Assembly (NCBI GenBank): GCA_963829295.1
Contig: CAWHHU010000003.1
Coordinates: 456,463 to 520,462 of the forward strand
Reading direction: 5' to 3'
Source: an uncultured Chloroflexia bacterium
GTDB taxonomy: Bacteria; Chloroflexota; Limnocylindria; Limnocylindrales; CSP1-4
DNA length: 64,000 bases
The first letter of the stretch is position 1; each line of letters begins with the position of its first letter. The notes under the pieces were generated by a model, which did no database searches, was not told the DNA's origin, and was given only the letters and a program-made list of their open reading frames with translations. Shown here in pieces: positions 3 to 22,990 of the stretch. The translations under genes and the position numbers were made by a program.

Positions 3-995
3 GCCCATCACCACCTGTACTCGGCCCTCGCCCGCGGCATGCCCGCCCCGCCCGAGACCCCCAGGACCTTCCGCCAGGTCCTGGAACAGGTCTGGTGGCG
101 GCTCGACCGTGCGCTCGACCTCGAGATGATCGAATGGTCGGCGAAGCTCGGTGCGCTCGAGGCGCTCGAGTCGGGCACGACCGCGATCATCGATCATCAC
201 GAATCGCCCAATGCCGTCGAAGGGTCGCTGTCGGTCATCGCCGGCGCGTGCGCCGAGGTCGGGGTGAGGGTCGTGTGCGCCTACGGCGTGACCGATCGCA
301 ACGGGCCGGGCGAGGCGGCCCGGGGGCTCGAGGAGAACCGGCGCTTCCTGGCCGGCGGGGGCCGCGGCCTGGTCGGCCTTCACGCGGCCTTCACCTGTGG
401 CGACGCGACCCTGGAGGCGGCGGCCGGGCTCGCCCGGGAGCTCGGCGTGGGCGTCCACATCCACGTCTGCGAGGGACCCGAGGATGCGGCGGCGCCGGCC
501 CGGCTGGCCCGGCACGCGACACCGCAATGGCTGCTGGCGCACGCCGTCCACCTCCCGACGGCGCACGGCCTCGCTGGCACCATCGTCCACAACCCGCTCT
601 CGAACCTCAACAACGCGGTGGGCTACGCGAACCCCGCGCGGTTCGAAAATCCCGTGGCGCTCGGCAGCGACGGCATCGGCGCCTACATGCTCGAGACCTT
701 CCGGCTCGCCCACGCGCTGCATCGGTCGGTCGATATCACCACCTCGCCCGAGGTCGCCTGGCGCTGGCTGGAGGCAGGATGGGACCTCGTGCCCGAGGCG
801 CGCGCCGACCACGTGACCTGGTCGTATCAGCCGATCGACCCCTGGCACGTGGCCTTCACGCCCGGCATCCGGCCGCTGCGCGTCGAGATCGGCGGCACCG
901 TCGTCTGGGCAGACGGCCGACCGACGCTGGTGGACGCCGCCGAGATCCGGGCGAAGGCGCGGGAGCAGGCCGCCCGACTGCACGCCCGGCTGTGA
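3..995 (+). CDS. Metal-dependent amidohydrolase, SsnA/chlorohydrolase-like (5' end outside window)
   Basis: Frame from position 3 reads AHHHLYSALARGMP (HxH metal motif); also TTAIIDHH, HIHVCE and ALGSDG motifs of the amidohydrolase superfamily. Confidence 0.85.
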   Translation, partial: AHHHLYSALARGMPAPPETPRTFRQVLEQVWWRLDRALDLEMIEWSAKLGALEALESGTTAIIDHHESPNAVEGSLSVIAGACAEVGVRVVCAYGVTDRNGPGEAARGLEENRRFLAGGGRGLVGLHAAFTCGDATLEAAAGLARELGVGVHIHVCEGPEDAAAPARLARHATPQWLLAHAVHLPTAHGLAGTIVHNPLSNLNNAVGYANPARFENPVALGSDGIGAYMLETFRLAHALHRSVDITTSPEVAWRWLEAGWDLVPEARADHVTWSYQPIDPWHVAFTPGIRPLRVEIGGTVVWADGRPTLVDAAEIRAKAREQAARLHARL

Positions 996-1002
996 GGACA
1001 CC

Positions 1003-2868
1003 ATGACGCGCGAAGGGCCGGCGCTCAGCCCGTTTCCGCTTTCGACGCTGCTCGGGCGGATCGCGCACGAGTGGGCGACGCGGCGCCGGATCTTCGATCT
1101 TCCCGCAAGTCGCTTCTTCAACGCCTCCGCGGGGCCGGACCTCTCGATCCGGTTCCTGGGTCGCCAGGCGGCAACGCCGCTCGGCCCGGCGTCGGGCCCC
1201 CACACCCAGCTGGCCCAGAACATCGTGCTCGCGTGGCTCGGCGGCGGCCGCGTCATCGAGCTCAAGACGGTCCAGGTCCTCGACGAGCTCCGGATCGGAC
1301 GGCCGTGCATCGACATGGAGACCGTCGGCTACAACGTCGAGTGGAGCCAGGAGCTGCGGATCGAGCAATCGCTCGAGGAGTACGTCAAGGCCTGGATGAT
1401 CATCGAGATCCTTCGCGGCTGGGACGAGCTCGGGCCGTTCATCGGGTCCGACCCCGGGCCGCACATCTTCGATCTCTCGCTCGGCTACGACCTCGCCGGC
1501 ATCGCGTCGGACCGGGTGGCAGCCTTCATCGATGGGATGTCGGATGCCAGCCAGGTGATCGAGCGCCTCCGCAAGGACATCCCCGAGGCGTTCGCCGCGT
1601 GGCTGGATCACCCGTTCGCGCCCGGGATCGCGGGCTCGGTCACGCTTTCGACCTTCCATGGCTGCCCGCCGGACGAGATCGGCGCGGTTGCCAGGCACCT
1701 GATGACCCGACATGGGCTGGACGTCGTGGTGAAGCTCAACCCGACGCTGCTCGGCTTCGAGCGCGTGTCCGGGATCCTGGCCGATGAGCTCGGCTACGGG
1801 GAGATCCGGCTGCGCCGCTCCGACTTCGAGCACGATCTGTCGCTCGCCCGGGCGGTCGAGCTGATCGACGATCTGGACGCGTTCGCCCGGTCCCATGAGC
1901 GACGGTTCGGGATCAAGTGCACGAACACGCTCGTCGTCGGGAACCACCGTGGCGTGCTGCCCACTGATCCGATGTACCTGTCCGGACCACCGCTCCACGT
2001 GCTCGCGATGTCGGTCGTCGGAGCTATCCAGCAGGCGCTGCCGGGCCGGCTCGCGATCGGCGGCCAGAACGGCACGGTCGCCGCAGACGGCACGGTCGCC
2101 GCGGACGGCACGGTCGCCGCGGACGGCACGGTCGCCGCGGACGGCACGGTCGCCGTCAGCTTCTCGGCCGGCGTGACGAAGCACAACCTGCCCCCCCTGG
2201 CAGGGCTCGGCCTGGCGCCCATCACCGTCTGCTCGGACCTGCTGCGGCCGGGTGGCTATGGGCGGCTCCGACCGATGCTCGGCGCGTTGAGCGATGCGAT
2301 GACCGAGGCCGGTTGCGCCGACCTGACCGCCTGGCGACGACACGCCGGCGAGGTCGCCACCAGGTCAGGGTTCACGGATCCCGTCGCCGCCTACGTCGCC
2401 ACGCTCCATGACCCGGGCGGCAACGGCCGCTACACACGGGCCGGCACGACACCGAGACCCCGGCGTATCGGCCAGGTCCTCGAGACCTGGGGATGCATCG
2501 CCTGCAACCAGTGCGTCACGGTCTGCCCCAACGACGCCTTCTTCCGGGTCCCGACGCCGGCCGGGATGGAGGTCGACGGTGATCACCAGTACCTGCTGTT
2601 GGCGGAGCTGTGCAACGAGTGCGGGAACTGCATGGTGTTCTGTCCCCAGCTGGGCGACCCGGCCGTGGTGAAGCCCGCGCTGTTCCTGGACCCGGACCGC
2701 CTCGCCCGCGGCGACCAGGCGGGCTTCCTCCTCTCGCAGGCCGGCGGCGTGGTCGTGGTCACGCCGACGCCCGGTCGCGAGACGGACGCCCGGCACCTGA
2801 GCCGGATGCTCAACACGGCGGCCGGCCTGCCCGTCGATCCGGTTCACCTCGGGCCCGCCCGGGCCTGA
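1003..2868 (+). CDS. YgfK-like protein: N-terminal DHODH-like barrel plus C-terminal 2x[4Fe-4S] ferredoxin, lacking the central FAD/NADPH module
   Basis: GPASGPHTQLAQNI, ELKTVQ and RPCID motifs resemble the YgfK N-terminus; CIACNQCVTVCP and CNECGNCMVFCP ferredoxin motifs; follows an ssnA-like gene. Confidence 0.75.
   Translation: MTREGPALSPFPLSTLLGRIAHEWATRRRIFDLPASRFFNASAGPDLSIRFLGRQAATPLGPASGPHTQLAQNIVLAWLGGGRVIELKTVQVLDELRIGRPCIDMETVGYNVEWSQELRIEQSLEEYVKAWMIIEILRGWDELGPFIGSDPGPHIFDLSLGYDLAGIASDRVAAFIDGMSDASQVIERLRKDIPEAFAAWLDHPFAPGIAGSVTLSTFHGCPPDEIGAVARHLMTRHGLDVVVKLNPTLLGFERVSGILADELGYGEIRLRRSDFEHDLSLARAVELIDDLDAFARSHERRFGIKCTNTLVVGNHRGVLPTDPMYLSGPPLHVLAMSVVGAIQQALPGRLAIGGQNGTVAADGTVAADGTVAADGTVAADGTVAVSFSAGVTKHNLPPLAGLGLAPITVCSDLLRPGGYGRLRPMLGALSDAMTEAGCADLTAWRRHAGEVATRSGFTDPVAAYVATLHDPGGNGRYTRAGTTPRPRRIGQVLETWGCIACNQCVTVCPNDAFFRVPTPAGMEVDGDHQYLLLAELCNECGNCMVFCPQLGDPAVVKPALFLDPDRLARGDQAGFLLSQAGGVVVVTPTPGRETDARHLSRMLNTAAGLPVDPVHLGPARA
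2069..2155 (+). repeat. In-frame 18-bp tandem repeat, about 5 copies (GTVAAD)
   Basis: ACGGCACGGTCGCCGCGG units start at 2069, 2087, 2105, 2123 and 2141. Confidence 0.95.
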
Positions 2869-3072
2869 TGTCCCGGGATCGACGAGGAGCGCGGGCGTCC
2901 CCTACCCGGCAGATCGGCCACGTGGGAGCGGTATCCTCGCGTAGGGCTGCGAGGTGCCACGCAGCGCGAGAGCCGAGAACCTCCACGCGAGGGGACCGGG
3001 TCGCGGCCCAGCCTCGGCCGTGCAGCACCCATCGTCTGACCGCACCACTCCATGTCGCGAAGGAGTCCTCGC

Positions 3073-7354: not shown

Positions 7355-8986
7355 ATGATCGATCCGCCGGCGATCGAGCCCGAGGTGCTGCCCGATCCGC
7401 CGCCGGCCGGAGACGTCGCGGTTGCGGCTGACCTGCCGGGGGTCCGCCCGGCGCGTGGGCGGCGCACGCTGAAGAATGCCCTGGCGAATGGCACCAGCCG
7501 CGTCGTCTCGGTGGTCGCGTCGTTCCTGCTGACGCCGGTCATCCTGCATGCGGTCGGGACCGACGCGTTCGGGTTATGGGTCCTCGTCGGGTCCGTCGTT
7601 GCGTACGGTTCGCTGCTCGACCTCGGGATCGGCGGTGCGCTGACCAAGTACGTCGCGGAGCACCAGGCGACGGGCGACGTCCGCTCCACGCGCTCGGTCA
7701 TTGCCGCCGGGTTGCGGCTGTACGTCGGCCTCGGCGCGATCGCCGCCCTGTTGGGGCTCGGGCTCGCCGCCGTCGCGCCGACCCTCTTTCGCGTCCCGGA
7801 CACCTTGGCCGGCACGGCCGGTGAGATCACCGCGCTGATGGCCGTTGGACTGGGCGTCGCGATCCCGTGCACGACCGCGACTGCCGTGCTCCGCGGGCTG
7901 CACCGCTACGACCTCGCGGCGGCGATCGCCGTCGTGGGGACCGTGGCCTCGGTGGCGACAACCCTCGGGGCATTGGCGCTCGGATGGGGGGTCCTCGGGA
8001 TCGTCGCGTTGGGAATACCCATCCCCATCGCGACCCAGTTGCTGGCCATCGCCGCCATCCGACGCATCGAACCGGCGCTGCTCGACCGGGGTGGGGAGCG
8101 CGCGCCGGGTGCCACCCGGCGCATCGTGGCCTTCAGCTGGCCCCTGTTCCTGCTCGACATCGCGGGCCGGCTTCAGACGAAGACCGATGAGATCGTGGTC
8201 GGCGTCGCGCTCGCGCTGGGCTCGGTGACGCCGTACGCGTTGGGGCGCAAGCTCTCGACGATCCCGCGTCTCATCGCCGAGCAGTTCACGATGCTGCTCC
8301 TGCCGCTCGCGTCCGAGCTGCACGCTCGCGACGAGCATGAACGGCTGCGCTCGCTGTACCTGGTCGGCGTCCGCACGTCGCTCGCTATCGCATTGCCACT
8401 CACGACCGCCCTGATCGTCCTGGCCGGACCGATCCTGGACGCCTGGGTGGGACCGGACTACGAAGGCGGTGCCGCGGTCGTCGTTATCCTCGCGATCGCC
8501 TCGGTGGTCGACCTGAGCCTGTGGCCGGCCGGATTCGTGCTGCAGGGCATCGCCCGCCACCGTTGGCTGGCACCGATTGCCCTGGGCTCGGGCGTCGCCA
8601 ACCTCATCCTGTCGCTAGCTCTCGCCCGACCGCTGGGCCTGGTCGGAGTGGCGCTGGGAACCCTCCTGCCCACAACGATCGAGGCGCTCGTCGTGCTCAC
8701 GCCGTTCACGCTGCGGACCCTGAACATCACGCCCGGGCGTTTTGCGAGCGAGGCGCTCGTGCCGGCCCTGTGGCCGGTCATCCCGGCCAGCCTGCTCCTG
8801 ATCGTCCTCCGGGCCTTGCTCGCCCCGACCTCGGTCGCGTCGATCGTGGTACTCGTCATCCTCGTGCACGCCGCGTACGGCGTGGCGTACCTGGCCAACC
8901 CGGCGGCAGGGCTAGAACGACGCGTCATCGGCGGCCTGGTATCGGATGTTCGCTCGGTCAGGTGGCGGTCGGGCGGACGGCCCTAG
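7355..8986 (+). CDS. Wzx/MurJ-like oligosaccharide flippase
   Basis: Many hydrophobic segments; FGLWVL..., LLDLGIGGALTKYVA typical of polysaccharide exporters; lies within the GT cluster. Confidence 0.85.
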   Translation: MIDPPAIEPEVLPDPPPAGDVAVAADLPGVRPARGRRTLKNALANGTSRVVSVVASFLLTPVILHAVGTDAFGLWVLVGSVVAYGSLLDLGIGGALTKYVAEHQATGDVRSTRSVIAAGLRLYVGLGAIAALLGLGLAAVAPTLFRVPDTLAGTAGEITALMAVGLGVAIPCTTATAVLRGLHRYDLAAAIAVVGTVASVATTLGALALGWGVLGIVALGIPIPIATQLLAIAAIRRIEPALLDRGGERAPGATRRIVAFSWPLFLLDIAGRLQTKTDEIVVGVALALGSVTPYALGRKLSTIPRLIAEQFTMLLLPLASELHARDEHERLRSLYLVGVRTSLAIALPLTTALIVLAGPILDAWVGPDYEGGAAVVVILAIASVVDLSLWPAGFVLQGIARHRWLAPIALGSGVANLILSLALARPLGLVGVALGTLLPTTIEALVVLTPFTLRTLNITPGRFASEALVPALWPVIPASLLLIVLRALLAPTSVASIVVLVILVHAAYGVAYLANPAAGLERRVIGGLVSDVRSVRWRSGGRP

Positions 8987-15664: not shown

Positions 15665-15727
15665 CTAGGCCGAAGTTCCAGCGCGCGGGCGTGCTCACCT
15701 GAGCACGGCGACGGTGTCGGGTTCTGA

Positions 15728-17458
15728 CTACACGCTGGCGGGTGTGAGCTCGAGCAGGGCGAGGGCCCGGGCCTGGAGGGCGGTCGGCACGGCGGTGATC
15801 TCGAACGCTGCCTCGGGCACGCCGGCCGGGGCGACCCGGTCGCGGGTGAGGGTCGCGAGCTCGGCGAGCAGGGTCCGGAAGCTGTGGGCGGGCGTGCCAT
15901 CCGCCAGCCGGCCGGTGCGCGCCTTGCGCTCCGCGGCCGCCGAGCGGCGGGCGGGGGCAACCGGGTCGGCGAGCTCGGGCGGCTGCTCGTCGCGGAACAG
16001 CAGCGGCGCCCAGGCCCGCTCGAGGTGCCACTGCACGTAGTAGGCGAGCATGCACAGCAGGATGTGGGCCCGGACCCGCGGCTCGGTCCAGTGGCGGATC
16101 GGGTGGATCGCGATGTCGGTCCCCTTGAACGCGCGGAACGCCCGCTCCACCCGGGTCAGGCGCTTGTACGCCCGGACGACGTCGGGTGCCGCCAGGCGCT
16201 CCGGGCCGACCGAGGTGCGCAGGACGTACAGGCCGTCGAGCGCCGCCTCCGCCGCGATCGACGCCTCGTCGCGGGTGATGGTGAGGGCCCCGTCGCTGAT
16301 CTCACACCGGAGATGCTTGGCCATCTTGTAGCGGTCGATCACCCGGCCCACCGCGAGCCCGATCCGGGCGGCGCCCGCCAGGCGTCCGAGCGCGACCCGG
16401 GCGACGATCGGGGCGAGTCTCGCCTCGGTCGCCGCGAGCAGGTCGGCCCGCTTGCGGGCCCGCTCGGCGGCGAGCAGCGGGTTGCGGCACACGACCAGGC
16501 GCTCGCCCGGGTAGTCGGGGCTCGCGATCTCGGCGAGGTTGCGCTCGTCGAACAGCCCGAGCTGGAGGTCGCCCGCCTCGAGCAGGCCCGCGAGCGCCGG
16601 GCCCCGGAGCGAGCTCACCCAGTCGAGCGAGGCGTCGCGGAGCGCGGCGATCCGGGCGCTGGTGAGCATCCCCCGGTCGCCCACAAGGATGGCCGAGGCG
16701 AGGCCGAACCGGGCCCGCAGCTTCTCGACCGCCGCGGGGACGGTGGCCGGGTCGGCGGTGTTGCCGGCCACGACCTCGACCGCGACCGGGCGGCCCTCGG
16801 GGTCGGTGAGCAGGCCGTACTCGACCTGGAGCGTGCCGGGCTTCCCGTCCCGGCTGTAGCCGATCCGCGCCAGCGGGTTGTGGCGGCCGGTGACCCAGGT
16901 GGACGACAGGTCGTACAGGACGAGACCGCCGGGCTCGAGGTGGCGGGCGGCAAGCCTCGCCTCGATCCGGGGCTGGCGCGCGAGCAGCCAGTCCATCGCG
17001 GCGTACAGCTCGTCGTCGGTGGCGTCCGCGACGCCGAGCACCGCGCCGAGCGTCGTCTGGGCCAGCCGCCTCGCGGTATCGAGCTTGGAGCCCGGGGCCA
17101 GCAGGCGGGCCACGATGAGCGCCACAGCGAGGTTGCGCCGCCGGCTCGGGCGGGGGTCGAGCAGCGACTCGAGCTCCAGGCGCCGCAGGGTGCCCAGGAT
17201 CGCCACCACCGCGCCGTGGGGCAGGCTCGCGGAGCGCTCGAGATCCAGATCGCCCGTGGCGAGGAACCGCTCGCCGCGCAGCCCGCGCCGGACGAGCTCG
17301 ATCAGCTCGGCCGGCAGGTGGGAGAGGTTGCCCACCGTCTCGGTCTTGACCTTGCCGTCCTCGCGGTACGACCGGCGCAGCAGGTGGGTCTCGTACAGCT
17401 TGCCCTTGTAGTGCCGACGCGTCGTCGAGACATGGACGGCGCCGCCTCGCGTGCTCAC
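15728..17458 (-). CDS. IS1634-family DDE transposase
   Basis: LLRRSYREDGKVKTETVGNLS N-terminus, VLYDLSS, LVGDRGM, VERAFR, VRAHILLCMLAY. Confidence 0.92.
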   Translation of the reverse strand: MSTRGGAVHVSTTRRHYKGKLYETHLLRRSYREDGKVKTETVGNLSHLPAELIELVRRGLRGERFLATGDLDLERSASLPHGAVVAILGTLRRLELESLLDPRPSRRRNLAVALIVARLLAPGSKLDTARRLAQTTLGAVLGVADATDDELYAAMDWLLARQPRIEARLAARHLEPGGLVLYDLSSTWVTGRHNPLARIGYSRDGKPGTLQVEYGLLTDPEGRPVAVEVVAGNTADPATVPAAVEKLRARFGLASAILVGDRGMLTSARIAALRDASLDWVSSLRGPALAGLLEAGDLQLGLFDERNLAEIASPDYPGERLVVCRNPLLAAERARKRADLLAATEARLAPIVARVALGRLAGAARIGLAVGRVIDRYKMAKHLRCEISDGALTITRDEASIAAEAALDGLYVLRTSVGPERLAAPDVVRAYKRLTRVERAFRAFKGTDIAIHPIRHWTEPRVRAHILLCMLAYYVQWHLERAWAPLLFRDEQPPELADPVAPARRSAAAERKARTGRLADGTPAHSFRTLLAELATLTRDRVAPAGVPEAAFEITAVPTALQARALALLELTPASV

Positions 17459-17464
17459 GCACGG

Positions 17465-17493
17465 ATCATCGCCGATCCAGGTGCATCTGTCAA
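17465..17493 (-). promoter_or_regulatory. Candidate sigma70-type promoter for the transposase (likely leaderless mRNA)
   Basis: Minus strand TTGACA (17493-17488), 17 nt, GATGAT (17470-17465), 6 nt, then the GTG start at 17458. Confidence 0.5.
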
Positions 17494-17724
17494 CTATATT
17501 AGTGCCTACGTCTCAGCACATGGGACAGGCGTCATCCGTGCTCAGACGGGGATCCGTTCGTGCTCACCGCCGGGCGGGCGGCCGCTGGAACTTCGGGCTA
17601 GGCCCGAACGTCGGGGCGCACGACCTCCGCCACAGGTGCAATTGATGCGTCAGAGCATGAGGCAAACCAACTGACACGCTCGCGTGGTACGCGGACGCCT
17701 CGCACCGCGTCGTGCGATCGCAGG

Positions 17725-18245
17725 TCAGGTGAGCTGAGTACGGAAGGCCTCCGCCGCCTCCATGTCGCGCCGCGCGCCGAGCTCCGAGAACGACGCGATC
17801 GCGGCGCGGGCCCCGCGAGCAGCGTCCCCCCAGTCGCCGAGGGCTGCAGCCGCGCGCGCCGCCTGCATCCGGCATCGGGCCGACTCGTAGGGAGCCCCGA
17901 CCGAACGCCACCGCAGAGCAGCGTCACGAACGAGGACGATCGCCCGAGCGGCGTCTCCATCGGCAAGCGAGACGCCACCCTGGCACGCCGCCGCGGTCGC
18001 CGCGAGGACTGGGCCGGGAAATGCATCGGCGAGGTCCGCGAGGTCGCCGCACAGCCCGCGAGCCCGATCCACGTCGCCGGCGCCGAGCGCGATCTCGACG
18101 ACCGCCGGAAGGTAGCGAGCGCGGGTCAACGGGTCATCCCCGGCGGCATCCAGAGCGCGGGTGATGGCGGCGAGCGCACCAAGGCCATCGCCCTCGGCGA
18201 GAAGCACCAGCGAGTGACCCGGACCCGGCGGCAGGCCGAACTCGG
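17725..18245 (-). pseudogene. 3' part of HTH-TPR (LuxR/MalT-like) regulator interrupted by a transposon
   Basis: EFGLPPGPG..., RWRSVGAPYESARCR, SELGA; joins in frame to 21312-22499. Confidence 0.88.
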
Positions 18246-18416
18246 TGTTGGCGGCATGACTGTATGGGCATGAACCCGCTGATGAGGGCCGCGCTGAATG
18301 GGGACGTCGACAGCGGGCGGCGCGCAGCTGAGATGATCTGACCCGACGCAACCAGGTGACCCCCCGAGGGATGTTGGCCCCCGGGGGGTCGGTGGTGGAG
18401 AAGTGGTCCACCGTCG

Positions 18417-19106
18417 GTGATCGTATGGCCCTGCGGGCTCGATGTCAGCGCGTATGCCGCGAAGGGGCGCGAGGTCGCGCCGCCCCGCGTGAGCTGCCCA
18501 CGCTGCGGCGGACCGACCGGGCCCTGGTCGGGATACCGCCGGCACCTGCGCGACGCGGAGCTCCACCGCATCTTCGTGCCCCGGGTGCGCTGCAAACGGT
18601 GCGGCGTGACCTCGGCCCTGCTGCCCTGGTTCGTGGCCCCGTACCGCTGGGACACCGTCGACGTCATCGGGCGGGCGCTGGAGCTCTCGGCGGGCGGCCA
18701 GGGGGTGCGCCGGATCGCGGCGTCGCTCGGGCGTCCCGAGACGACCGTCCGCGAGTGGGTCCGCCGGTTCGGCATCGTGGCCGCCGACCTTGCCCGGGCC
18801 CTGCTCGTGGCCGCGGTCGGGACCGGCTGGTCGGGCTTCGACCTGCCGACGGCGCCCGGTCCCCGAGCGGCTGCCGCGGTCGCCGCCCTCGCGTCAGCCT
18901 GGGCTCGCCGCCACGGACCCGCCGGGGCCTGGCGCCTGGCGGACCTCGTCACCGGCGGGGCCTGGCTCGCCCCCAACACGACCTCGCCCTTGGCACCGCC
19001 GGCGGTCTCCCATGTGATGGCCGGGAAACCCCGACCGCATCCTGGAGGTGACCCATGGCCGCCCGCGACCCCGCCGAAGCCCTCGCCCTCTGGCGGTACC
19101 ACCTGA
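18417..19106 (+). CDS. Transposon accessory protein, zinc finger plus HTH (DUF6431-like)
   Basis: CPRCG...RVRCKRCG..ALLPWF..PY; VRRIAASLGRPETTVREWVRRF helix-turn-helix. Confidence 0.75.
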   Translation: MIVWPCGLDVSAYAAKGREVAPPRVSCPRCGGPTGPWSGYRRHLRDAELHRIFVPRVRCKRCGVTSALLPWFVAPYRWDTVDVIGRALELSAGGQGVRRIAASLGRPETTVREWVRRFGIVAADLARALLVAAVGTGWSGFDLPTAPGPRAAAAVAALASAWARRHGPAGAWRLADLVTGGAWLAPNTTSPLAPPAVSHVMAGKPRPHPGGDPWPPATPPKPSPSGGTT

Positions 19107-20401
19107 TCGCCGAGGCCCTGAACCCGAGGCTCACCGGCCGCGAGCGTGGCCTCCTGGTCCGCCGGACCGTCGGCGAGCACGCCTGCCCCGGAGGCGACGT
19201 CCGATCGGCCAGCCGCAACACCCTCGACCGCTGGATCCGCCGGTACCGCGCCGAGGGCCTCGCCGGCCTGCGCGACCGGCCCCGCTCGGATCGGGGATCG
19301 GCGCGCCTCGACCCGGCGCTCCTCGACGAGGCGGTCCGCCTGCGCCTCGAGCAGCCCGCCCGGAGCGCCGCCCACATCAGCGAGATCATCAGGGCTCGCC
19401 ACGGCGTGCGGATCGCCGAGCGCACGCTCGCCGAGCAGTTCCGCCGCCGCGGCCTCGCCCGGGCCGAGCTGCTCCGGGACGGCCGGGCGTTCGGGCGGTA
19501 CGAGGCCGACGCGCCGAACGAGCGCTGGATCGGCGACGTGCTCGTCGGCCCGTTCGTGCCCCAGCCCCGGGCGCCGGGCTCGGTGCGCGCGCGCCTGTTC
19601 GTGCTGGTCGACGACCACTCCCGGCTCCTGGTCGCCGGCCGCTGGGCCGGCAACGAGACCCTGCGCGCGGGCCAGGAGCTGCTCCACGCGGCGATCCTGC
19701 GCCACGGCGCGCCCGAGTCGCTGTACGTGGACAACGGATCGGCGTACAGCGGCGCCGAGCTCGCGAGGAGCTGTGCGATCCTGGGCATCCGGCTCATCCA
19801 CAGCCGGCCGTACTCGCCCGAGGGCCGGGGCAAGCAGGAGCGCCTCAACCGGGTCATCCGGGAGCGCTTCCTCTTGGAGGCCACCCAGGTCGGGATCGCC
19901 AGCCTCGACGAGCTCAACGACCGCTTCGTGGCCTGGGTCGAGCGGTACCTCAACGTGCGGGTCCACTCCGAGACCGGCGAGTCGCCGCTCGCCCGGCACA
20001 GCCCGGCGAGGCGGCGCGACCCCCACCCCGACGTCCTCCGCTCGGCCTTCCTCTGGTCGGCCGCCCGGAGGGTGAGCCGGACCGCGGGCGTCAGCTTCGA
20101 GGGCAACGAGTACGAGGTCGACCCGAGCCTTGTCGGTCGGACGGTCGAGCTCCGGTTCCGCCCGGAGGACCTGTTCGCGATCGAGGTCTGGCACGCCGGC
20201 CGCCAGGTCGGCTGGGCGGAGCCGCGGCGGATCGCCCGCCACGTCCATCGATCTGCGCCGCCCCCTCCCGAGCCCGCGCCGGCGCCCCCGACCGGGATCG
20301 ACTACCTCGGCCAGGTGCTCGCCGACCACGAGGCCGAGACCGCCGGGCCGATCGCGTACCGCGCCGTTCCCGGTGCACCTGCAGAGGGAGAGCCGTTCTG
20401 A
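19055..20401 (+). CDS. DDE transposase/integrase (rve) with Mu-transposase-like C-terminus
   Basis: WIGD, YVDNGSAY, GKQER triad; N-terminal HTH; FEGNEYEV C-terminal motif; GGAGG RBS. Confidence 0.92.
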   Translation: MAARDPAEALALWRYHLIAEALNPRLTGRERGLLVRRTVGEHACPGGDVRSASRNTLDRWIRRYRAEGLAGLRDRPRSDRGSARLDPALLDEAVRLRLEQPARSAAHISEIIRARHGVRIAERTLAEQFRRRGLARAELLRDGRAFGRYEADAPNERWIGDVLVGPFVPQPRAPGSVRARLFVLVDDHSRLLVAGRWAGNETLRAGQELLHAAILRHGAPESLYVDNGSAYSGAELARSCAILGIRLIHSRPYSPEGRGKQERLNRVIRERFLLEATQVGIASLDELNDRFVAWVERYLNVRVHSETGESPLARHSPARRRDPHPDVLRSAFLWSAARRVSRTAGVSFEGNEYEVDPSLVGRTVELRFRPEDLFAIEVWHAGRQVGWAEPRRIARHVHRSAPPPPEPAPAPPTGIDYLGQVLADHEAETAGPIAYRAVPGAPAEGEPF

Positions 20402-21219
20402 TGAGCGAGCGCGCACCCTGGCAGGCCCACTTCGGCTTCACGCGATCACCCTTCGGCAAGAGCCTCGCGCCGTCGGAGCTGTTCACGAGGGTTCCCCACG
20501 AGGAGGCCGTCGCCCGGATCCGCCACTGCATCGCGGAGTCGGCGCTGGGCGTGATCACGGGCGAGGTCGGGACCGGCAAGACGGTCGCGGCCCGGGCCGC
20601 CCGGGCGTCGCTCGACCCGTCGCGCCACGCCCTCATCTACATCGCCAACCCCGCGTTCGGGACGCGCGGGCTCTATGTCACCGTGGTCCGGGCGCTGGGC
20701 GGGACGCCGCGCTTCCACAAGGCGGAGGTGATGGCCCAGACCGCCGAGCTGCTCGAGGCGGAAGAGGCCGAGCGCCACCGGCGGGTCGTGATCGTCGTCG
20801 ACGAGGCCCACCTGCTCACCCCGGAACAGCTCGAGGAGCTCCGGTTGCTCACCAACTCCGACATGGACAGCCGGAGCCCCTTCGCGGGGATCCTGCTCGG
20901 GCAGCCCTCCCTCGCCCGACAGCTCAGGCTCGGGGTGTTCGCCGCGCTCGACCAGCGGATCGCGGTCCGCTACCACATCGGCCCCATGGACCTCGGCGAC
21001 TCGACCGCCTACCTGCGCCACCACCTGGCCCTCGCCGGGCGGTCGGACCAGCTCTTCGCCGATGACGCCATCGTGCGCCTGCACCGCCAGTCCAACGGGA
21101 TCCCGCGGGCTCTCAACAACGCCGCGGTCGCGGCGCTCATCGCCGCCGCGGCGGATGGCAAGGAGATCGTCGACGACGCCTGCGCCAAGAAGGCGGTCGC
21201 CGAGCTCACCCGCGACTGA
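20401..21219 (+). CDS. ExeA-type AAA ATPase (transposition helper)
   Basis: HFGFTRSPF, Walker A GEVGTGKT, Walker B VVDEAH, ILLGQP, ALDQRI; TGATG coupling to the transposase. Confidence 0.92.
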   Translation: MSERAPWQAHFGFTRSPFGKSLAPSELFTRVPHEEAVARIRHCIAESALGVITGEVGTGKTVAARAARASLDPSRHALIYIANPAFGTRGLYVTVVRALGGTPRFHKAEVMAQTAELLEAEEAERHRRVVIVVDEAHLLTPEQLEELRLLTNSDMDSRSPFAGILLGQPSLARQLRLGVFAALDQRIAVRYHIGPMDLGDSTAYLRHHLALAGRSDQLFADDAIVRLHRQSNGIPRALNNAAVAALIAAAADGKEIVDDACAKKAVAELTRD

Positions 21220-21311
21220 TCAGCACGTGGCGGCGGCGTCTCCACCGAGCGCTGCCGTCACGCCTCCACCCAGTCCTGCCGGATGCTCACCAATCAGTGC
21301 GGCCGCCAACA

Positions 21312-22499
21312 CTCGGCCGCGCGATCGAACGCGTCGCGCGCCGCGAGGTCACCCTGTCGCAGCCGGATGTCTCCGAGCGCCGTGAGCGCCAGTGCGGTGT
21401 GGCCGAAGTCGTAGGCGCGCGACTCGACCGCAGCAGCTTCCGCCTCCTCGGCGCCGCGTTGCCAGTCGCCGCGGACGACGAGCACGGCAGCGCGGTGCGT
21501 CCGGCAGTCTCCCGGGAACCCCACGGTGCCAAGCGCCGGCGCACGCCGTTCGATCTCCTCGGTCCACTCGATGGCCCGCCGGTAGTCGAAGGTATCAAGG
21601 CACGCGCTCAGCGTCCGGCAATAGACCATGCCCTGCGCGAGGGTTCCCAGGTGGCCCGCCGTCGCGCTCGCCATCGCCTCGTCGAGGAGAGCGCGCCCGT
21701 CAGCGAGCCGCCCCTGGTGGACGAGCCCGAAGCCCTGGAACACGAGGCCCAGCGCCTGTATGTCCGGGTCGCCGGTCCGCCGACCGATATCGAACGCCGC
21801 GCGCGCATGCTCCAGGCCCGGTTCGAGCTCGCCCGTGCCGAGCTCATTCAGCGCCATCAGCGACAGCATGAGCCCGTGCTCGGGCCAGACGGCCGACTCG
21901 CCTGTCTCACCCTCTGCCGCCAGCAAGCGCCCCGCCGACGCCATCCAGCCGGCGACCACCGAGAACCGGAGCGTCACCGCGGCATTCCACCCGAGCCCCA
22001 AGGCGACACGTGCCGCCGATCGCCGATCGCCGACCGAGAGATAGGCCGCGTACGCCTGCTCGCGGGCCGCGGTCGATGCCTCGAACCGCCCCGTCCACGT
22101 CGCGGCGTCGCCGAGCAGCTCCAGGTCTGCGACCTCGAGGAGGCCGGCCGCGCCCGCCGCCGCGAGGGCGGCGTACGCCTCCTCCCACGCACGTCGTGCC
22201 GCGGCCCCGCGCCCGACCTCGACCGGACTCGTGCCAGCCGGCGGGCGTGGGCCGACGCCCGGGAGGAAGCCCCGCAGAACAGCCCCCCGCGCCAGCGCGA
22301 TCCGCCGGCTCTCCGTCCCTTCGGCGACCTCGAACTTGTCGTACAGGTTCAGGAGGTGCTGCTTGACGGCCGCCTCCGTCACCACGAGCTCGGCCGCGAT
22401 CTCGCGGATCGACGCGGGCATCGCGACAGGCCGCTCCGCTGCCAGAGGTCTGCACAGCGCTTCCAGCACGTCGTGCTCGCGGCGCGTGAGCGCCGGCAT
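21312..22499 (-). pseudogene. 5' part of regulator with N-terminal LuxR-like HTH followed by TPR-like repeats, interrupted by a transposon
   Basis: LTRREHDVL...SIREIAAELVVTEAAVKQHL HTH; ends at DRAAE, then reads into the TIR; reconstructed protein about 567 aa. Confidence 0.88.
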
Positions 22500-22555
22500 C
22501 GACCTCGCCCGCAACTCGGGAGCATCCACCTCGTGCGCGCGTCCTCCTCGACCGA

Positions 22556-22575
22556 ACCTTACCCCACGGCAAGGT
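22556..22575. promoter_or_regulatory. 20-bp dyad ACCTT-N10-AAGGT, candidate operator between divergent genes
   Basis: ACCTTACCCCACGGCAAGGT; same 5-10-5 geometry as lux boxes. Confidence 0.4.
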
Positions 22576-22672
22576 GAACTCTCACCTCCCGGGTCATTCC
22601 GGCGGTGGGGTCCGGGCCCATACGGTGGCACCGATCCCGCGGCACCCGCCGCGGCACCACGAGGAGAGCGAC

Positions 22673-22990
22673 ATGCAGCACGTTCGGATCGCGACCTACA
22701 AGCAGACCGCTGGCACCTTCGACGACCTGTGCCGGACCATCCACGCGCCCGGAGGCCTCGCGGACGTCTTCCGGGCGTCACCCGGGTTCGTCGCCTACAC
22801 CTTCGCCGACCTTGGCGACGGCACCAACTGCTCGATCAGCGTCTGGACCTCCGCCGAGGCGGCCGATGCGGCGATGGCTGCGGCGGGCATCTGGACGGCG
22901 GCCAACATCGCCGACCAGGGGTACCTCGTGGAGGACCGGACCGGCTGGCTGGGCTTCATCGTCGGCGAGCTGGCGGCCGTCCCGGCCTGA
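22673..22990 (+). CDS. Small ABM-like (dimeric alpha+beta barrel) protein
   Basis: SPGFVAY...SISVWTSAEAA pattern; GAGGAG RBS; divergent from the regulator. Confidence 0.7.
   Translation: MQHVRIATYKQTAGTFDDLCRTIHAPGGLADVFRASPGFVAYTFADLGDGTNCSISVWTSAEAADAAMAAAGIWTAANIADQGYLVEDRTGWLGFIVGELAAVPA

What the first reader, a model, noticed from the sequence alone, without database searches (positions are those of the whole stretch)
18246..21311. Compact three-gene TG...CA transposon with exactly defined ends and a Zn-finger/HTH accessory gene
Seen: 10-bp TIR (extending imperfectly to ~22 bp), 5-bp TSD CTCGG, and excision restores DRAAE|FGLP in the host regulator, so the boundaries are certain. Known: TG...CA ends, 5-bp TSD, an rve/Mu-type transposase and an AAA helper are hallmarks of the Mu/Tn7/Tn5053 group, where a Zn-binding TniQ/TnsD selects targets. 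IS21 elements have only two genes. Inference: the third gene may be a TniQ-analogous target selector or regulator in a minimal, poorly characterised transposon family.
Basis: partly seen in the sequence, partly recalled or inferred. Interest (0 to 1): 0.72.

Follow-up and report, generated by a model that had tools for sequence, protein, structure and literature searches.

The report
Three-gene Mu/Tn552-type insertion sequence
A 3,066-bp jumping gene with exactly defined ends has split a regulator gene; it pairs a Mu/Tn552-type transposase and helper ATPase with a conserved, uncharacterised zinc-ribbon DNA-binding protein that does not resemble the known target selector TniQ and that also survives alone in 0.9-kb mini-copies.

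Summary
Window 18246-21311 is a 3,066-bp element with TGT...ACA ends: a 10/10 inverted repeat (17/22 when extended), a 5-bp duplication CTCGG, and an excision that restores a 679-aa LuxR/MalT-like ORF.

- **Genes.** ORF1 has DUF6431 zinc-ribbon and HTH_23 domains. ORF2 has HTH, rve and Mu-transposase C-terminal domains. ORF3 is an AAA_22 ATPase.
- **Closest relatives.** ORF2 and ORF3 are homologous to the Tn552 p480/ATPase pair. The ORF3 profile hits MuB and TnsC.
- **Distribution.** The same three-gene cassette occurs in many Chloroflexota MAGs, with identical termini, and in Actinomycetota.
- **Insertion sites.** Fifty independent insertion sites share no sequence. There is only a weak CCNGG-like bias in the duplicated 5-mer, as I recall for Mu.
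- **TniQ analogy.** ORF1 shows no sequence, profile or fold similarity to TniQ, so that reading is not supported.
- **Unexpected finding.** An ~891-bp mini-element keeps the same ends and only a diverged ORF1 homologue. It sits at six or more sites, two of them with perfect 5-bp duplications, and its dN/dS equals that of full-length ORF1.

Best reading: a Mu/Tn552-like, probably replicative IS whose third protein acts on the element's own DNA, either marking its ends or regulating it. I rate it a new variant of a known kind. No IS family name or paper was found for it.

The parts
18241..18245 (.). Left copy of the 5-bp target-site duplication, CTCGG
   Evidence: Identical 5-mer at 21312-21316. 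Excision keeping one copy restores the host ORF.
18246..18267 (+). Left terminal inverted repeat, TGTTGGCGGC... (10/10, 17/22 when extended)
   Evidence: I16. Similarity to 18 related loci begins exactly here.
18265..18306 (+). Left subterminal region with inward-facing TGGNSAYG repeats at element positions 20 (TGGGCATG) and 54 (TGGGGACG). The position-35 copy is degenerate in this element. These are candidate transposase or ORF1 binding sites.
   Evidence: The motif recurs at L 20/35/54 and R 20/44/68 in 8 full-length relatives and 4 mini-elements. Background is 0.74 per kb per strand. The motif was defined after seeing the data.
18358..18390 (+). Conserved 12-bp hairpin or palindrome in the ORF1 leader (GACCCCCCGAGGG...CCCCCGGGGGGTC)
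   Evidence: RNAalifold on 11 copies shows 4 pairs with compensatory changes. Analogous GGCCCTCCCG...CGGGAGGGCC stems lie upstream of the ORF1 homologues in L021, L026 and L027. The mini-elements have no comparable strong hairpin; RNAalifold predicts only two weak 7-pair stems there.
18394..18412 (+). Second, invariant hairpin (GGTGGA...TCCACC) just upstream of the ORF1 GTG start. It may occlude the ribosome-binding site.
   Evidence: All 6 core pairs are invariant in 11 copies, so there is no covariation evidence either way.
18417..19106 (+). ORF1, 229 aa: CxxC...CxxC zinc ribbon (DUF6431), then HTH_23, then a helical C-terminal domain. The last ~17 codons overlap ORF2.
   Evidence: Pfam. Weak match to the ISL3 transposase N-terminus, E 1.5e-5. 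More than 120 full-length homologues at 69-84% identity. 1,244 clusters at 50% identity with E<=1e-3. AF2 pLDDT 90.8 for residues 1-135. dN/dS 0.30-0.49.
19055..20401 (+). ORF2, 448 aa: DDE transposase with N-terminal HTH (HTH_28/29/32), an rve core, the Mu-transposase C-terminal beta-barrel and a C-terminal tail. It has its own ATG preceded by GGAGG.
   Evidence: Pfam and NCBIfam. 24-26% identity end-to-end to Tn552-type p480, E 8e-23 and 4e-28. dN/dS median 0.27.
20401..21219 (+). ORF3, 272 aa: AAA+ (AAA_22, 'ExeA-like') ATPase of the MuB/TnsC type, translationally coupled to ORF2 (ATGA overlap)
   Evidence: Pfam AAA_22 E 1.5e-23. Profile against PDB: MuB 8xvb E 8e-7, ShTnsC 7m99 E 2.9e-6. 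24% identity to the ATPase of a Tn552-like Bacillus element, E 9e-9. dN/dS median 0.11.
21237..21292 (-). Right subterminal region with inward-facing TGGNSAYG-type repeats at positions 20, 44 and 68 from the right end. Only the position-68 copy (TGGAGACG) fits the pattern exactly in this element.
21290..21311 (-). Right terminal inverted repeat, ...GCCGCCAACA
   Evidence: Similarity to 9 related loci ends exactly here.
21312..21316 (.). Right copy of the 5-bp target-site duplication, CTCGG
17725..18245 (-). C-terminal part of the disrupted host gene (LuxR/GerE HTH plus MalT-like TPR regulator)
   Evidence: The restored 679-aa ORF has weak GerE and TPR_MalT Pfam hits.
21312..22781 (-). N-terminal part of the disrupted host regulator gene

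Best explanation
This is an intact, recently active insertion sequence of the MuA/MuB (TnsB/TnsC, Tn552 p480/p271) mechanistic class.

**Shown**
- ORF2 is the DDE transposase and ORF3 is a MuB/TnsC-type AAA+ ATPase.
- The ends are TGT...ACA and carry two or three inward-facing 8-mer repeats each.
- Insertion duplicates 5 bp.
- Sites are essentially unrestricted, apart from a weak CCNGG-like preference inside the duplicated 5-mer.

**Inferred from the homologous systems**
- ORF2 binds the repeated end sites and cuts only the 3' ends.
- ORF3 coats target DNA and delivers and activates ORF2.
- The element has no TnsA-like second nuclease and no resolvase. Transposition is therefore probably replicative or Mu-like, and cointegrates are resolved by the host.
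- This would also explain why about half of the copies in long-read assemblies lack a matched duplication.

**ORF1**
- ORF1 is not a TniQ-type target selector.
- It is a sequence-specific DNA-binding accessory protein (zinc ribbon plus HTH) that acts on the element's own DNA, either the repeated end sites or the palindromic leader.
- My preferred version is that it works preferentially in cis to mark the ends or assemble them for capture by ORF2/ORF3. That would explain why the only non-autonomous derivatives found keep this gene, intact and under the same selective constraint, together with about 60-75 bp of each end.
- A repressor role at the same sites is nearly as likely.
For: **Element anatomy and boundaries:**

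**Transposase and ATPase class**
- Pfam shows rve, Mu-transpos_C and AAA_22.
- ORF2 against Tn552 p480 gives E 8e-23, and against a Tn552-like Bacillus transposase E 4e-28.
- ORF3 against that element's ATPase gives E 9e-9.
- The ORF3 profile hits MuB at 8e-7 and ShTnsC at 3e-6, and does not hit IstB.

**Repeated end motifs:** they sit at conserved positions in full-length and mini copies.

**No site specificity**
- Fifty unique left flanks and 16 right flanks show no mutual similarity.
- TSD position 4 is G in 72% of sites (p 1.6e-6). Position 1 is C in 54%. CYNRG occurs 9/50 against 1.5 expected.

**ORF1 is conserved and linked to ORF2/ORF3 across phyla**
- Streptomyces plasmids.
- Amycolatopsis and Saccharopolyspora chromosomes.
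- The ORF1 alignment holds over its full length at 32-45% identity.

**ORF1 is a DNA binder:** DUF6431 plus HTH_23, ISL3 N-terminus-like, confident model.

**ORF1 is not TniQ:**

**Mini-elements**
- They are ~891 bp with the same ends and an ORF1 homologue only, 37% identical to ORF1 at E 5e-23.
- They occupy six or more distinct sites with unrelated neighbours and no rve or AAA gene nearby.
- Two sites have perfect TSDs, CCTGC and GGGGG.
- dN/dS is 0.38-0.53 against 0.30-0.49 for full-length ORF1.

**TSD-less copies in long-read assemblies:** L005, L009, L080 and L082-84.
Against: - No experiment exists. ORF1's DNA target, partners and effect on transposition are all inferred.
- The end motif TGGNSAYG was defined after seeing the data, and the copies are related, so positional conservation is partly inheritance.
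- Retention of ORF1 in mini-elements could be host-level selection for a repressor (compare P-element KP elements, from memory). It could also be an accident of ORF1 lying next to the left end. The ~0.4 dN/dS and the deep divergence from full-length ORF1 argue against pure accident.
- ORF2 has its own HTH domains and may not need help to find the ends.
- The replicative mode rests on the absence of TnsA and a resolvase and on TSD-less copies. Recombination between copies or, in short-read contigs, chimeric assembly could also produce such copies.
- The catalytic core scores best against the IS481 HMM (171 bits), so a copy-out-paste-in route cannot be excluded.
- ISfinder and TnCentral could not be queried, so a classified relative may exist.
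Confidence: 0.6

Rival explanations
1. ORF1 is a transposition repressor or autoregulator, working like IS1 InsA, IS3-family OrfA, the Mu repressor or Tn3-family TnpR. It binds the ends or the leader palindrome and shuts down the ORF1-ORF2-ORF3 operon or blocks transpososome assembly. The ORF1-only mini-elements would then be repressor elements kept because they tame the autonomous copies.
For: - ORF1 is the first gene of the operon, directly behind the left end.
- A conserved palindrome or hairpin lies between the end sites and the ORF1 start in Chloroflexota and Actinomycetota copies. The mini-elements, which have no transposase operon, lack a comparable strong hairpin.
- ORF1 occupies the position that the resolvase/regulator holds in Tn552-like elements.
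- dN/dS is below 1 in both contexts.
Against: - ORF1's DNA-binding module (zinc ribbon plus HTH_23) is not a copy of the ORF2 N-terminus. The classic mechanism of competition by an identical DNA-binding domain therefore does not apply directly.
- ORF1 is never seen to be lost from intact three-gene cassettes across two phyla. That fits an essential component at least as well as a dispensable brake.
- A hairpin with compensatory changes fits an RNA structure as well as an operator.
Confidence: 0.3
2. ORF1 is a target selector that is functionally analogous, though not homologous, to TniQ, TnsD or TnsE. It would couple the ORF3 ATPase to some feature of target DNA, such as a structure, replication forks or a bound protein, rather than to a sequence.
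For: - The partnership with a TnsC/MuB-type ATPase is the context in which TniQ-like adaptors work.
- ORF1 has a zinc-binding domain plus an HTH, as TniQ does in a broad sense.
- A structure- or process-directed selector would not leave a conserved flanking sequence.
Against: - There is no sequence, profile or fold similarity to TniQ or TnsD.
- Fifty insertion sites share nothing beyond a weak bias inside the 5-bp duplication.
- Insertions lie inside ordinary genes, such as the regulator here.
- A trans-acting selector gives no reason for non-autonomous mini-elements to keep their own diverged copy under selection.
- Mu works with MuA and MuB alone (established knowledge).
Confidence: 0.08
3. 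ORF1 and ORF2 are fused by programmed -1 ribosomal frameshifting, in the IS1/IS3 style, so that ORF1 supplies the DNA-binding domain of the real transposase.
For: In this copy ORF2 is in the -1 frame relative to ORF1, and they overlap by 52 nt.
Against: - The overlap contains no slippery heptamer (read directly).
- ORF2 has its own ATG six nt after GGAGGT, and its own HTH domains.
- In Actinomycetota relatives the two genes are separated by 68-99 nt.
Confidence: 0.02

Closest known systems
Tn552 (Staphylococcus aureus; p480 transposase, p271 ATP-binding protein, BinL resolvase) and Tn552-like elements of Bacillus
   Same: - The transposase shares the whole architecture (HTH, rve core, Mu-type C-terminal barrel) at 24-26% identity, E 8e-23 to 4e-28.
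- An AAA+ gene follows it and is translationally coupled. The ATPases are homologous at E 9e-9.
- Both have TG...CA-type ends.
   Different: - There is no serine resolvase or res site. A DUF6431 zinc-ribbon/HTH gene sits in that upstream position instead.
- There are no passenger genes.
- The TSD is 5 bp; I recall 6-7 bp for Tn552.
- The hosts are Chloroflexota and Actinomycetota.
'TnsBC elements' of Streptomyces (Hsieh et al. 2024, bioRxiv 10.1101/2024.11.13.623437)
   Same: - A TnsB-like transposase is followed by an AAA+ TnsC-like gene.
- There is no tnsA and no tniQ.
- Ends are TGT/ACA, and the two-ended basal members have a 5-bp TSD.
- ORF1/ORF3 homologues occur on Streptomyces plasmids, including one of strain YIM 121038, which that paper names.
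   Different: - That paper describes telomeric one-ended forms, and basal forms that carry a serine recombinase.
- It does not mention any HTH, zinc or DUF6431 gene.
- Whether the present family falls inside their tree was not tested.
Bacteriophage Mu MuA/MuB
   Same: - The ORF3 profile's best solved-structure hit is MuB, E 8e-7.
- ORF2 has the Mu-transposase C-terminal domain.
- Both have a 5-bp TSD, TG...CA ends with several subterminal sites, and near-random targets.
- The palindromic 5-mer bias found here (CCNGG-like) resembles Mu's CYSRG, which I cite from memory.
   Different: - This is a 3-kb IS, not a phage.
- The ORF2 core is closer to IS481 and retroviral-integrase HMMs than to MuA by sequence.
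- There is no enhancer/repressor system of the Mu kind.
- It has the extra ORF1.
Tn5053/Tn402 (TniA, TniB, TniQ, TniR)
   Same: A 5-bp TSD, a transposase with the Mu C-terminal domain, an NTP-binding partner and a third zinc-associated protein.
   Different: - ORF1 against TniQ gives hhalign probability 0.09%.
- ORF3 against TniB gives E 0.74.
- ORF2 against TniA matches over only 47 aa.
- There is no resolvase and no res-site targeting.
IS21 (IstA/IstB) and IS481 families
   Same: - TG ends, an rve transposase and, in IS21, an AAA+ helper.
- The IS481 HMM is the best NCBIfam hit to ORF2, at 171 bits.
   Different: - Both scores are below the family cut-offs: IS481 171 against 224, and IS21 50 against 160.
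- ORF3 is MuB/TnsC-like, not IstB/DnaC-like.
- IS481 elements are ~1-kb single-gene elements (from memory).
Small DNA-binding accessory proteins of transposons: IS1 InsA (zinc finger plus HTH), IS3-family OrfA, P-element KP repressor, PIF/Harbinger Myb-like protein (all from memory)
   Same: A small protein with a zinc-dependent or HTH DNA-binding module is encoded at the element's 5' end. Deletion derivatives that keep only that protein are known for P elements (KP).
   Different: - No homology has been shown.
- Here the accessory gene is a separate cistron with a DNA-binding module unlike that of its transposase.
- The partner system is a MuB/TnsC-type two-protein transposase.

Membership tests
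Tn5053/Tn402 | TniQ protein (Pfam PF06527) | tested here: not met
   No TniQ Pfam hit for ORF1. hhalign of the ORF1 profile against R751 TniQ gives probability 0.09%, E 0.58. Foldseek finds no TniQ.
Tn5053/Tn402 | TniB-family NTP-binding protein (PF05621) | tested here: not met
   ORF3 hits AAA_22 but not TniB at E<0.01. BLASTP against R751 TniB gives E 0.74.
Tn5053/Tn402 | TniR/TniC serine resolvase plus res site, with res-site targeting | tested here: not met
   There are only three genes in 3,066 bp and none is a recombinase. Insertion sites are unrelated to each other.
Tn7-like | TnsA endonuclease | tested here: not met
   No such gene in the element.
Tn7-like | TnsC-type AAA+ regulator | tested here: met
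   The ORF3 profile hits ShTnsC at E 2.9e-6 and VchTnsC at E 2.7e-3.
Tn7-like | TnsD/TniQ or another dedicated target selector, with an attachment site | tested here: not met
Tn552 | p480-type transposase | tested here: met
   24% identity over 363 aa to the pSA1379 protein, E 8e-23. 26% over 413 aa to the Bacillus homologue, E 4e-28.
Tn552 | p271-type ATP-binding protein downstream of the transposase | tested here: met
   ORF3 against the AAA ATPase of the Tn552-like B. toyonensis element: 24% over 221 aa, E 9e-9. The gene order is the same.
Tn552 | Serine resolvase (BinL) and res site upstream of the transposase | tested here: not met
   A resolvase is present in L078 and L079. Here it is absent and ORF1 (DUF6431-HTH) holds that position.
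Tn552 | 6-7 bp target duplication (recalled from memory) | tested here: not met
   The TSD is 5 bp in the window copy, L007, L011 and two mini-element sites.
IS21 | IstA transposase above the family cut-off, and an IstB (PF01695) helper | tested here: not met
   The IS21 HMM scores 49.9 bits against a cut-off of 160. There is no IstB_IS21 Pfam hit and no IstB among the PDB hits.
IS481 | Single-gene element whose transposase passes the IS481 model | tested here: not met
   171.3 bits against a cut-off of 224. The element has three genes and an extra Mu-type C-terminal domain. The TGT ends are shared.
TnsBC elements (Hsieh et al. 2024) | TnsB-like transposase followed by a TnsC-like AAA+ gene, no tnsA or tniQ, TGT/ACA ends, 5-bp TSD in two-ended members | tested here: met
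   The descriptive criteria are met, read against the description.
TnsBC elements (Hsieh et al. 2024) | Placement inside their TnsB phylogeny | not tested
   Their sequences and tree were not available to me.
IS1/IS3-type OrfA-OrfAB organisation | Programmed -1 frameshift that fuses the upstream DNA-binding ORF to the catalytic ORF | tested here: not met
   There is no slippery site in the 52-nt overlap. ORF2 has its own SD and ATG. The genes are separated by 68-99 nt in Actinomycetota relatives.

The most novel reading that the evidence does not exclude
These three-gene elements, with a DUF6431-HTH gene, would form an undescribed IS family in which a third, non-TniQ protein is an obligatory, cis-acting end-recognition or 'licensing' subunit of a MuA/MuB-type transposase. 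The ORF1-only 0.9-kb elements would then be a new kind of semi-autonomous bacterial transposon. Each carries its own licence gene and borrows the transposase and ATPase from full-length copies.
Probability: 0.3. Interest if true: 0.75.

Novelty: new variant of a known kind. Interest (0 to 1): 0.55.

Why it matters
AAA+-assisted DDE transposons (Mu, Tn7 and the CRISPR-associated CAST transposons, Tn552, Tn5053, IS21) are the models for how an ATPase couples target choice to transposase activation, and they underlie programmable DNA-insertion tools.

This 3-kb element has a TnsB/TnsC-type pair but no TnsA, no TniQ and no resolvase. It may be one of the smallest natural versions of that machinery. 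Its one extra protein is conserved across two phyla, and about 1,200 sequence clusters carry a domain (DUF6431) with no known function.

The mini-elements that keep only this gene offer a natural experiment. They point to a role at the element's own DNA. They also give a simple genetic test: mobilise a mini-element with and without its ORF.

If ORF1 proves dispensable, the finding shrinks to a well-delimited member of a poorly annotated IS family. That is still useful for annotation, because RefSeq currently labels the parts 'DDE-type integrase', 'ExeA family protein' and 'DUF6431 domain-containing protein'.

Tried and rejected
1. **TniQ analogy.** A Pfam scan, hhalign against R751 TniQ and two Foldseek searches were all negative. 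The first Foldseek search used a poor full-length model (pLDDT 63). The second used a good 1-135 model (pLDDT 90.8).
2. **Frameshift fusion of ORF1 and ORF2.** Rejected.
3. **Site-specific targeting.** An all-against-all tblastx of flanks found nothing, apart from one 34-aa chance-level hit.
4. **ORF1 as a copy of the ORF2 DNA-binding domain.** BLASTP gives E 0.42.
5. **Rfam.** A search of the element found no family at E<=1.
6. **Promoters and terminators.** A sigma-70/terminator scan found no + strand promoter and no terminator. It found one outward-facing consensus match on the minus strand at 18448-18420, which I do not interpret.
7. **Ends of the actinobacterial relatives (L021, L025, L026, L027).** Repeated subterminal motifs are visible and the L026 left end (TGTCCGGCGGCAT...) resembles this one. 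I could not fix both termini or TSDs with confidence. L026 shows an unexplained 25-nt direct repeat spanning its right end.
8. **Solo DUF6431 genes on Mycobacterium and Rhodococcus plasmids (L023, L024).** No flanking inverted repeats were found. PLSDB omits pseudogenes, so this is inconclusive.
9. **Short-read metagenome contigs that span a whole copy.** Most show no TSD (also L001, L003, L008 and L013). I attribute this to chimeric repeat assembly and did not count it as evidence.
10. **Literature.** Searches for DUF6431, ExeA plus transposase, TniQ/TniB in Actinobacteria, and Tn552/TnsB/TnsC found no description of this architecture.
11. **ISNCY transposases.** Those of Enterobacteriaceae that match ORF2 at 24% identity are single-gene elements, not this architecture.

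Full report
**1.

Window 18246-21311 is a 3,066-bp insertion. Its ends are TGTTGGCGGC... and ...GCCGCCAACA, a 10/10 inverted repeat that is 17/22 when extended. CTCGG is present on both sides. Removing the element with one CTCGG copy fuses two minus-strand ORF fragments into one 679-aa ORF reading ...DRAAE|FGLP.... That ORF has weak GerE/LuxR HTH and MalT-type TPR matches.

The boundaries do not rest on this copy alone.
- Related Chloroflexota loci become similar exactly at TGTTGG and stop exactly at AACA, with unrelated DNA outside.
- One metagenome assembly contains a 3,063-bp contig that is element positions 3-3065 at 100% identity, the signature of a collapsed multi-copy repeat.
- Two further full-length copies have perfect 5-bp duplications: L007 has CCTGC and L011 has CCTGT.

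**2. The genes**

- **ORF1** (18417-19106, 229 aa) has a CxxC...CxxC zinc ribbon (Pfam DUF6431), an HTH_23 domain and a helical C-terminal part. It also matches weakly the N-terminal 100 residues of ISL3 transposases.
- **ORF2** (19055-20401, 448 aa) has N-terminal HTH domains, an rve core and the Mu-transposase C-terminal barrel. The IS481 model is its best NCBIfam hit but scores below the cut-off (171 against 224 bits).
- **ORF3** (20401-21219, 272 aa) is an AAA_22 ATPase that databases call 'ExeA family'.

ORF2 and ORF3 overlap by ATGA. ORF1 overlaps ORF2 by 52 nt, and ORF2 has its own GGAGG-ATG start.

**3. What the transposase/ATPase pair is**

ORF2 aligns end-to-end with Tn552-type p480 transposases. 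Against S. aureus pSA1379 it gives E 8e-23, and against a Tn552-like Bacillus toyonensis element E 4e-28. ORF3 aligns with the ATPase of that Bacillus element at E 9e-9.

A five-sequence ORF3 profile finds MuB (E 8e-7) and type V-K TnsC (E 3e-6) as the best solved structures. It does not find IstB.

Against Tn402 of R751 the matches are negligible.
- ORF2 against TniA matches over only 47 aa.
- ORF3 against TniB gives E 0.74.
- ORF1 against TniQ gives hhalign probability 0.09%.

So the pair belongs with MuA/MuB, TnsB/TnsC and Tn552. It is not a Tn5053, Tn7, IS21 or canonical IS481 member (see the membership table).

The descriptive class 'TnsBC elements' (a TnsB-like gene followed by a TnsC-like gene, no tnsA or tniQ, TGT/ACA ends, 5-bp TSD) was recently defined in Streptomyces (Hsieh et al. 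2024). That paper mentions no HTH or zinc protein.

**4. The family**

ORF1 has more than 120 full-length homologues at 69-84% identity, mostly on ~3-kb metagenome contigs. It has 1,244 clusters at 50% identity with E<=1e-3.

The same cassette, an ORF1 homologue followed by rve/Mu-C and then AAA_22, is found in several Actinomycetota.
- On Streptomyces plasmids, where a small extra ORF sits before the ATPase.
- On the Amycolatopsis and Saccharopolyspora chromosomes.

ORF1 is alignable there over its whole length at 32-45% identity. In those relatives ORF1 and ORF2 are separated by 68-99 nt, which rules out a general IS1/IS3-style frameshift fusion. RefSeq gives all these proteins generic names with no IS family. 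The only two papers that mention DUF6431 merely list it in tables, in one case next to a DDE integrase in Ruminococcus gnavus.

**5. The ends**

Each end carries inward-facing copies of an 8-mer, TGGNSAYG. They lie at positions 20, 35 and 54 on the left and 20, 44 and 68 on the right. These positions are kept across diverged full-length copies and in the mini-elements. Background density is 0.74 per kb per strand. Some copies of the motif are degenerate in the window element. The motif was defined after seeing the data, so I treat it as suggestive. Several subterminal sites are what Mu, Tn7, Tn552 and IS21 ends look like (established knowledge).

Between the left sites and ORF1 lies a 12-bp hairpin or palindrome with four compensatory pairs in 11 copies. 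An invariant hairpin follows it, next to the start codon. Comparable stems precede the ORF1 homologues in actinobacterial copies. No Rfam family matches.

**6. Target choice**

A scan of metagenome contigs with the left-end pattern, added to the genome loci, gave 50 distinct left junctions and 16 right junctions. The flanks share no similarity.

Within the duplicated 5-mer there is a bias.
- Position 4 is G in 72% of sites (p 1.6e-6).
- Position 1 is C in 54%, and position 2 is C in 52%.
- CYNRG occurs 9/50 against 1.5 expected.

This is a weak, roughly palindromic CCNGG-like preference. It resembles Mu's CYSRG consensus, which I cite from memory. It is the kind of bias that a transposase-target DNA interaction gives, not an attachment site. 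Together with the negative TniQ comparisons and two Foldseek searches (the second on a pLDDT-90.8 model), this leaves the TniQ analogy unsupported.

**7. The mini-elements**

Three metagenome contigs carry an ~890-bp element whose first ~61 nt and last ~75 nt match the 3-kb element. It is flanked by a perfect CCTGC duplication. Inside is a single gene, a diverged ORF1 homologue that is 37% identical over 200 aa at E 5e-23 and has the DUF6431 and HTH domains.

Relatives of this gene occur as solo genes among unrelated host genes (glycosyltransferases, an MmeI-type enzyme, RHS proteins), with no rve or AAA gene nearby. All of them lie in ~891-bp units that are 79-86% identical to one another and have family-type ends. 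One more has a perfect GGGGG duplication. Two further sites appear in the metagenome set, which makes at least six distinct sites.

All four copies analysed keep the reading frame open. dN/dS is 0.38-0.53, the same as full-length ORF1 (0.30-0.49). For comparison, ORF2 has a median of 0.27 and ORF3 a median of 0.11. The mini-elements keep the end motifs. They have no comparable leader hairpin; RNAalifold predicts only two weak 7-pair stems there.

These are therefore long-lived non-autonomous elements. They must borrow the transposase and ATPase, yet they maintain their own ORF1-like gene.

**8. Mechanism**

Shown:
- the anatomy;
- the homologies;
- the 5-bp duplication;
- the lack of site specificity;
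- the conservation of ORF1 and its linkage to ORF2/ORF3;
- the existence of ORF1-only elements and the selective constraint on them.

Inferred:
- ORF2 binds the repeated end sites and ORF3 acts as a MuB/TnsC-like target-DNA activator.
- Transposition is probably replicative, because the element has no second nuclease and no resolvase. In long-read assemblies about half the copies lack matched duplications (L005, L009, L080, L082-84). Recombination between copies would give the same picture.
- ORF1 acts on the element's own DNA.

I favour a cis-acting role for ORF1 in marking or assembling the ends, because that gives a non-autonomous element a direct reason to keep the gene. A repressor role is nearly as likely. 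The leader palindrome is a possible operator, it is absent from the mini-elements, and ORF1 holds the position that the resolvase/regulator has in Tn552.

**9. Novelty and score**

The transposase/ATPase chemistry is a known kind. Three things are not described in anything I could search:
- a compact resolvase-less, TniQ-less TnsB/TnsC-type IS;
- a conserved DUF6431-HTH third gene;
- the ORF1-only derivatives.

ISfinder could not be queried. I rate this a new variant of a known kind, with interest 0.55.

Noticed in passing
L075:1477-2367, L042:188-1075, L059:1678-2567, L080:4412-5304, L081:4377-5267, L082:2687-3577 (also L083, L084, L045, L055): ~891-bp mini-elements have the same termini and end motifs as the 3-kb element but contain only a diverged ORF1 homologue. 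Its dN/dS is about 0.4. Perfect 5-bp TSDs occur at two sites (CCTGC, GGGGG). The neighbours are unrelated host genes.
   Followed up: yes
window 18358-18412: The ORF1 leader has two hairpins. The first (12 bp) shows 4 compensatory pairs in 11 copies, and analogous stems occur in actinobacterial relatives. The second is invariant and abuts the start codon. The structure could be an RNA element or a DNA operator. There is no Rfam match.
   Followed up: partly
window 15665-17601: A second mobile element lies about 125 bp from the 3' end of the disrupted regulator. It is an IS1634-family IS with a 576-aa transposase on the minus strand (NCBIfam 300 bits against a cut-off of 100) and 43-nt imperfect terminal inverted repeats.
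   Followed up: partly
L028 (ENA ERZ25039483 contig_68696, 3,063 bp): A stand-alone contig equals element positions 3-3065 at 100% identity. It is most simply a collapsed multi-copy repeat. A circular or excised form cannot be excluded from the sequence alone.
   Followed up: partly
L033, L047, L049/L072, L052, L057/L063, L065, L068, L062/L077: Solo left-end stubs of 46-160 nt are followed by unrelated sequence, with no ORF1, ORF2 or ORF3 and no right end. They could be deletion scars or short-read assembly chimeras.
   Followed up: partly
L026:4780-4804 and 7990-8016 (Amycolatopsis sp. cg5 chromosome): A 25-nt direct repeat, CACCGTCACCGGCCCAGAGCCCGAG, lies just outside the left end and spans the presumed right end of the actinobacterial three-gene element. 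It is unexplained. It might reflect insertion into a remnant of a related end, or a long duplication.
   Followed up: no
L021:3822-4052 and L025:6560-6781 (Streptomyces plasmids): Streptomyces versions of the cassette have an extra 73-76-aa ORF between the transposase and the ATPase. In the window element that position is held by the C-terminal tail of ORF2. This may be a split or fused ATPase-interaction segment.
   Followed up: no
L005, L009 (full-length) and L080, L082-L084 (mini), all long-read assemblies: Copies with clean ends but different 5-mers on the two sides. This fits intramolecular replicative transposition or recombination between copies.
   Followed up: partly
window 18448-18420 (minus strand): The only sigma-70-like consensus match in the element is CTGACA-17-TACGAT. 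It points outward toward the left end from inside the start of ORF1. It is a consensus match only, in a high-GC organism.
   Followed up: no
L023:4465-5037 and L024:4447-5025 (Mycobacterium and Rhodococcus plasmids): DUF6431-HTH genes are annotated without an adjacent transposase or ATPase. No flanking inverted repeats were found. PLSDB tables omit pseudogenes, so decayed partners may be hidden.
   Followed up: partly
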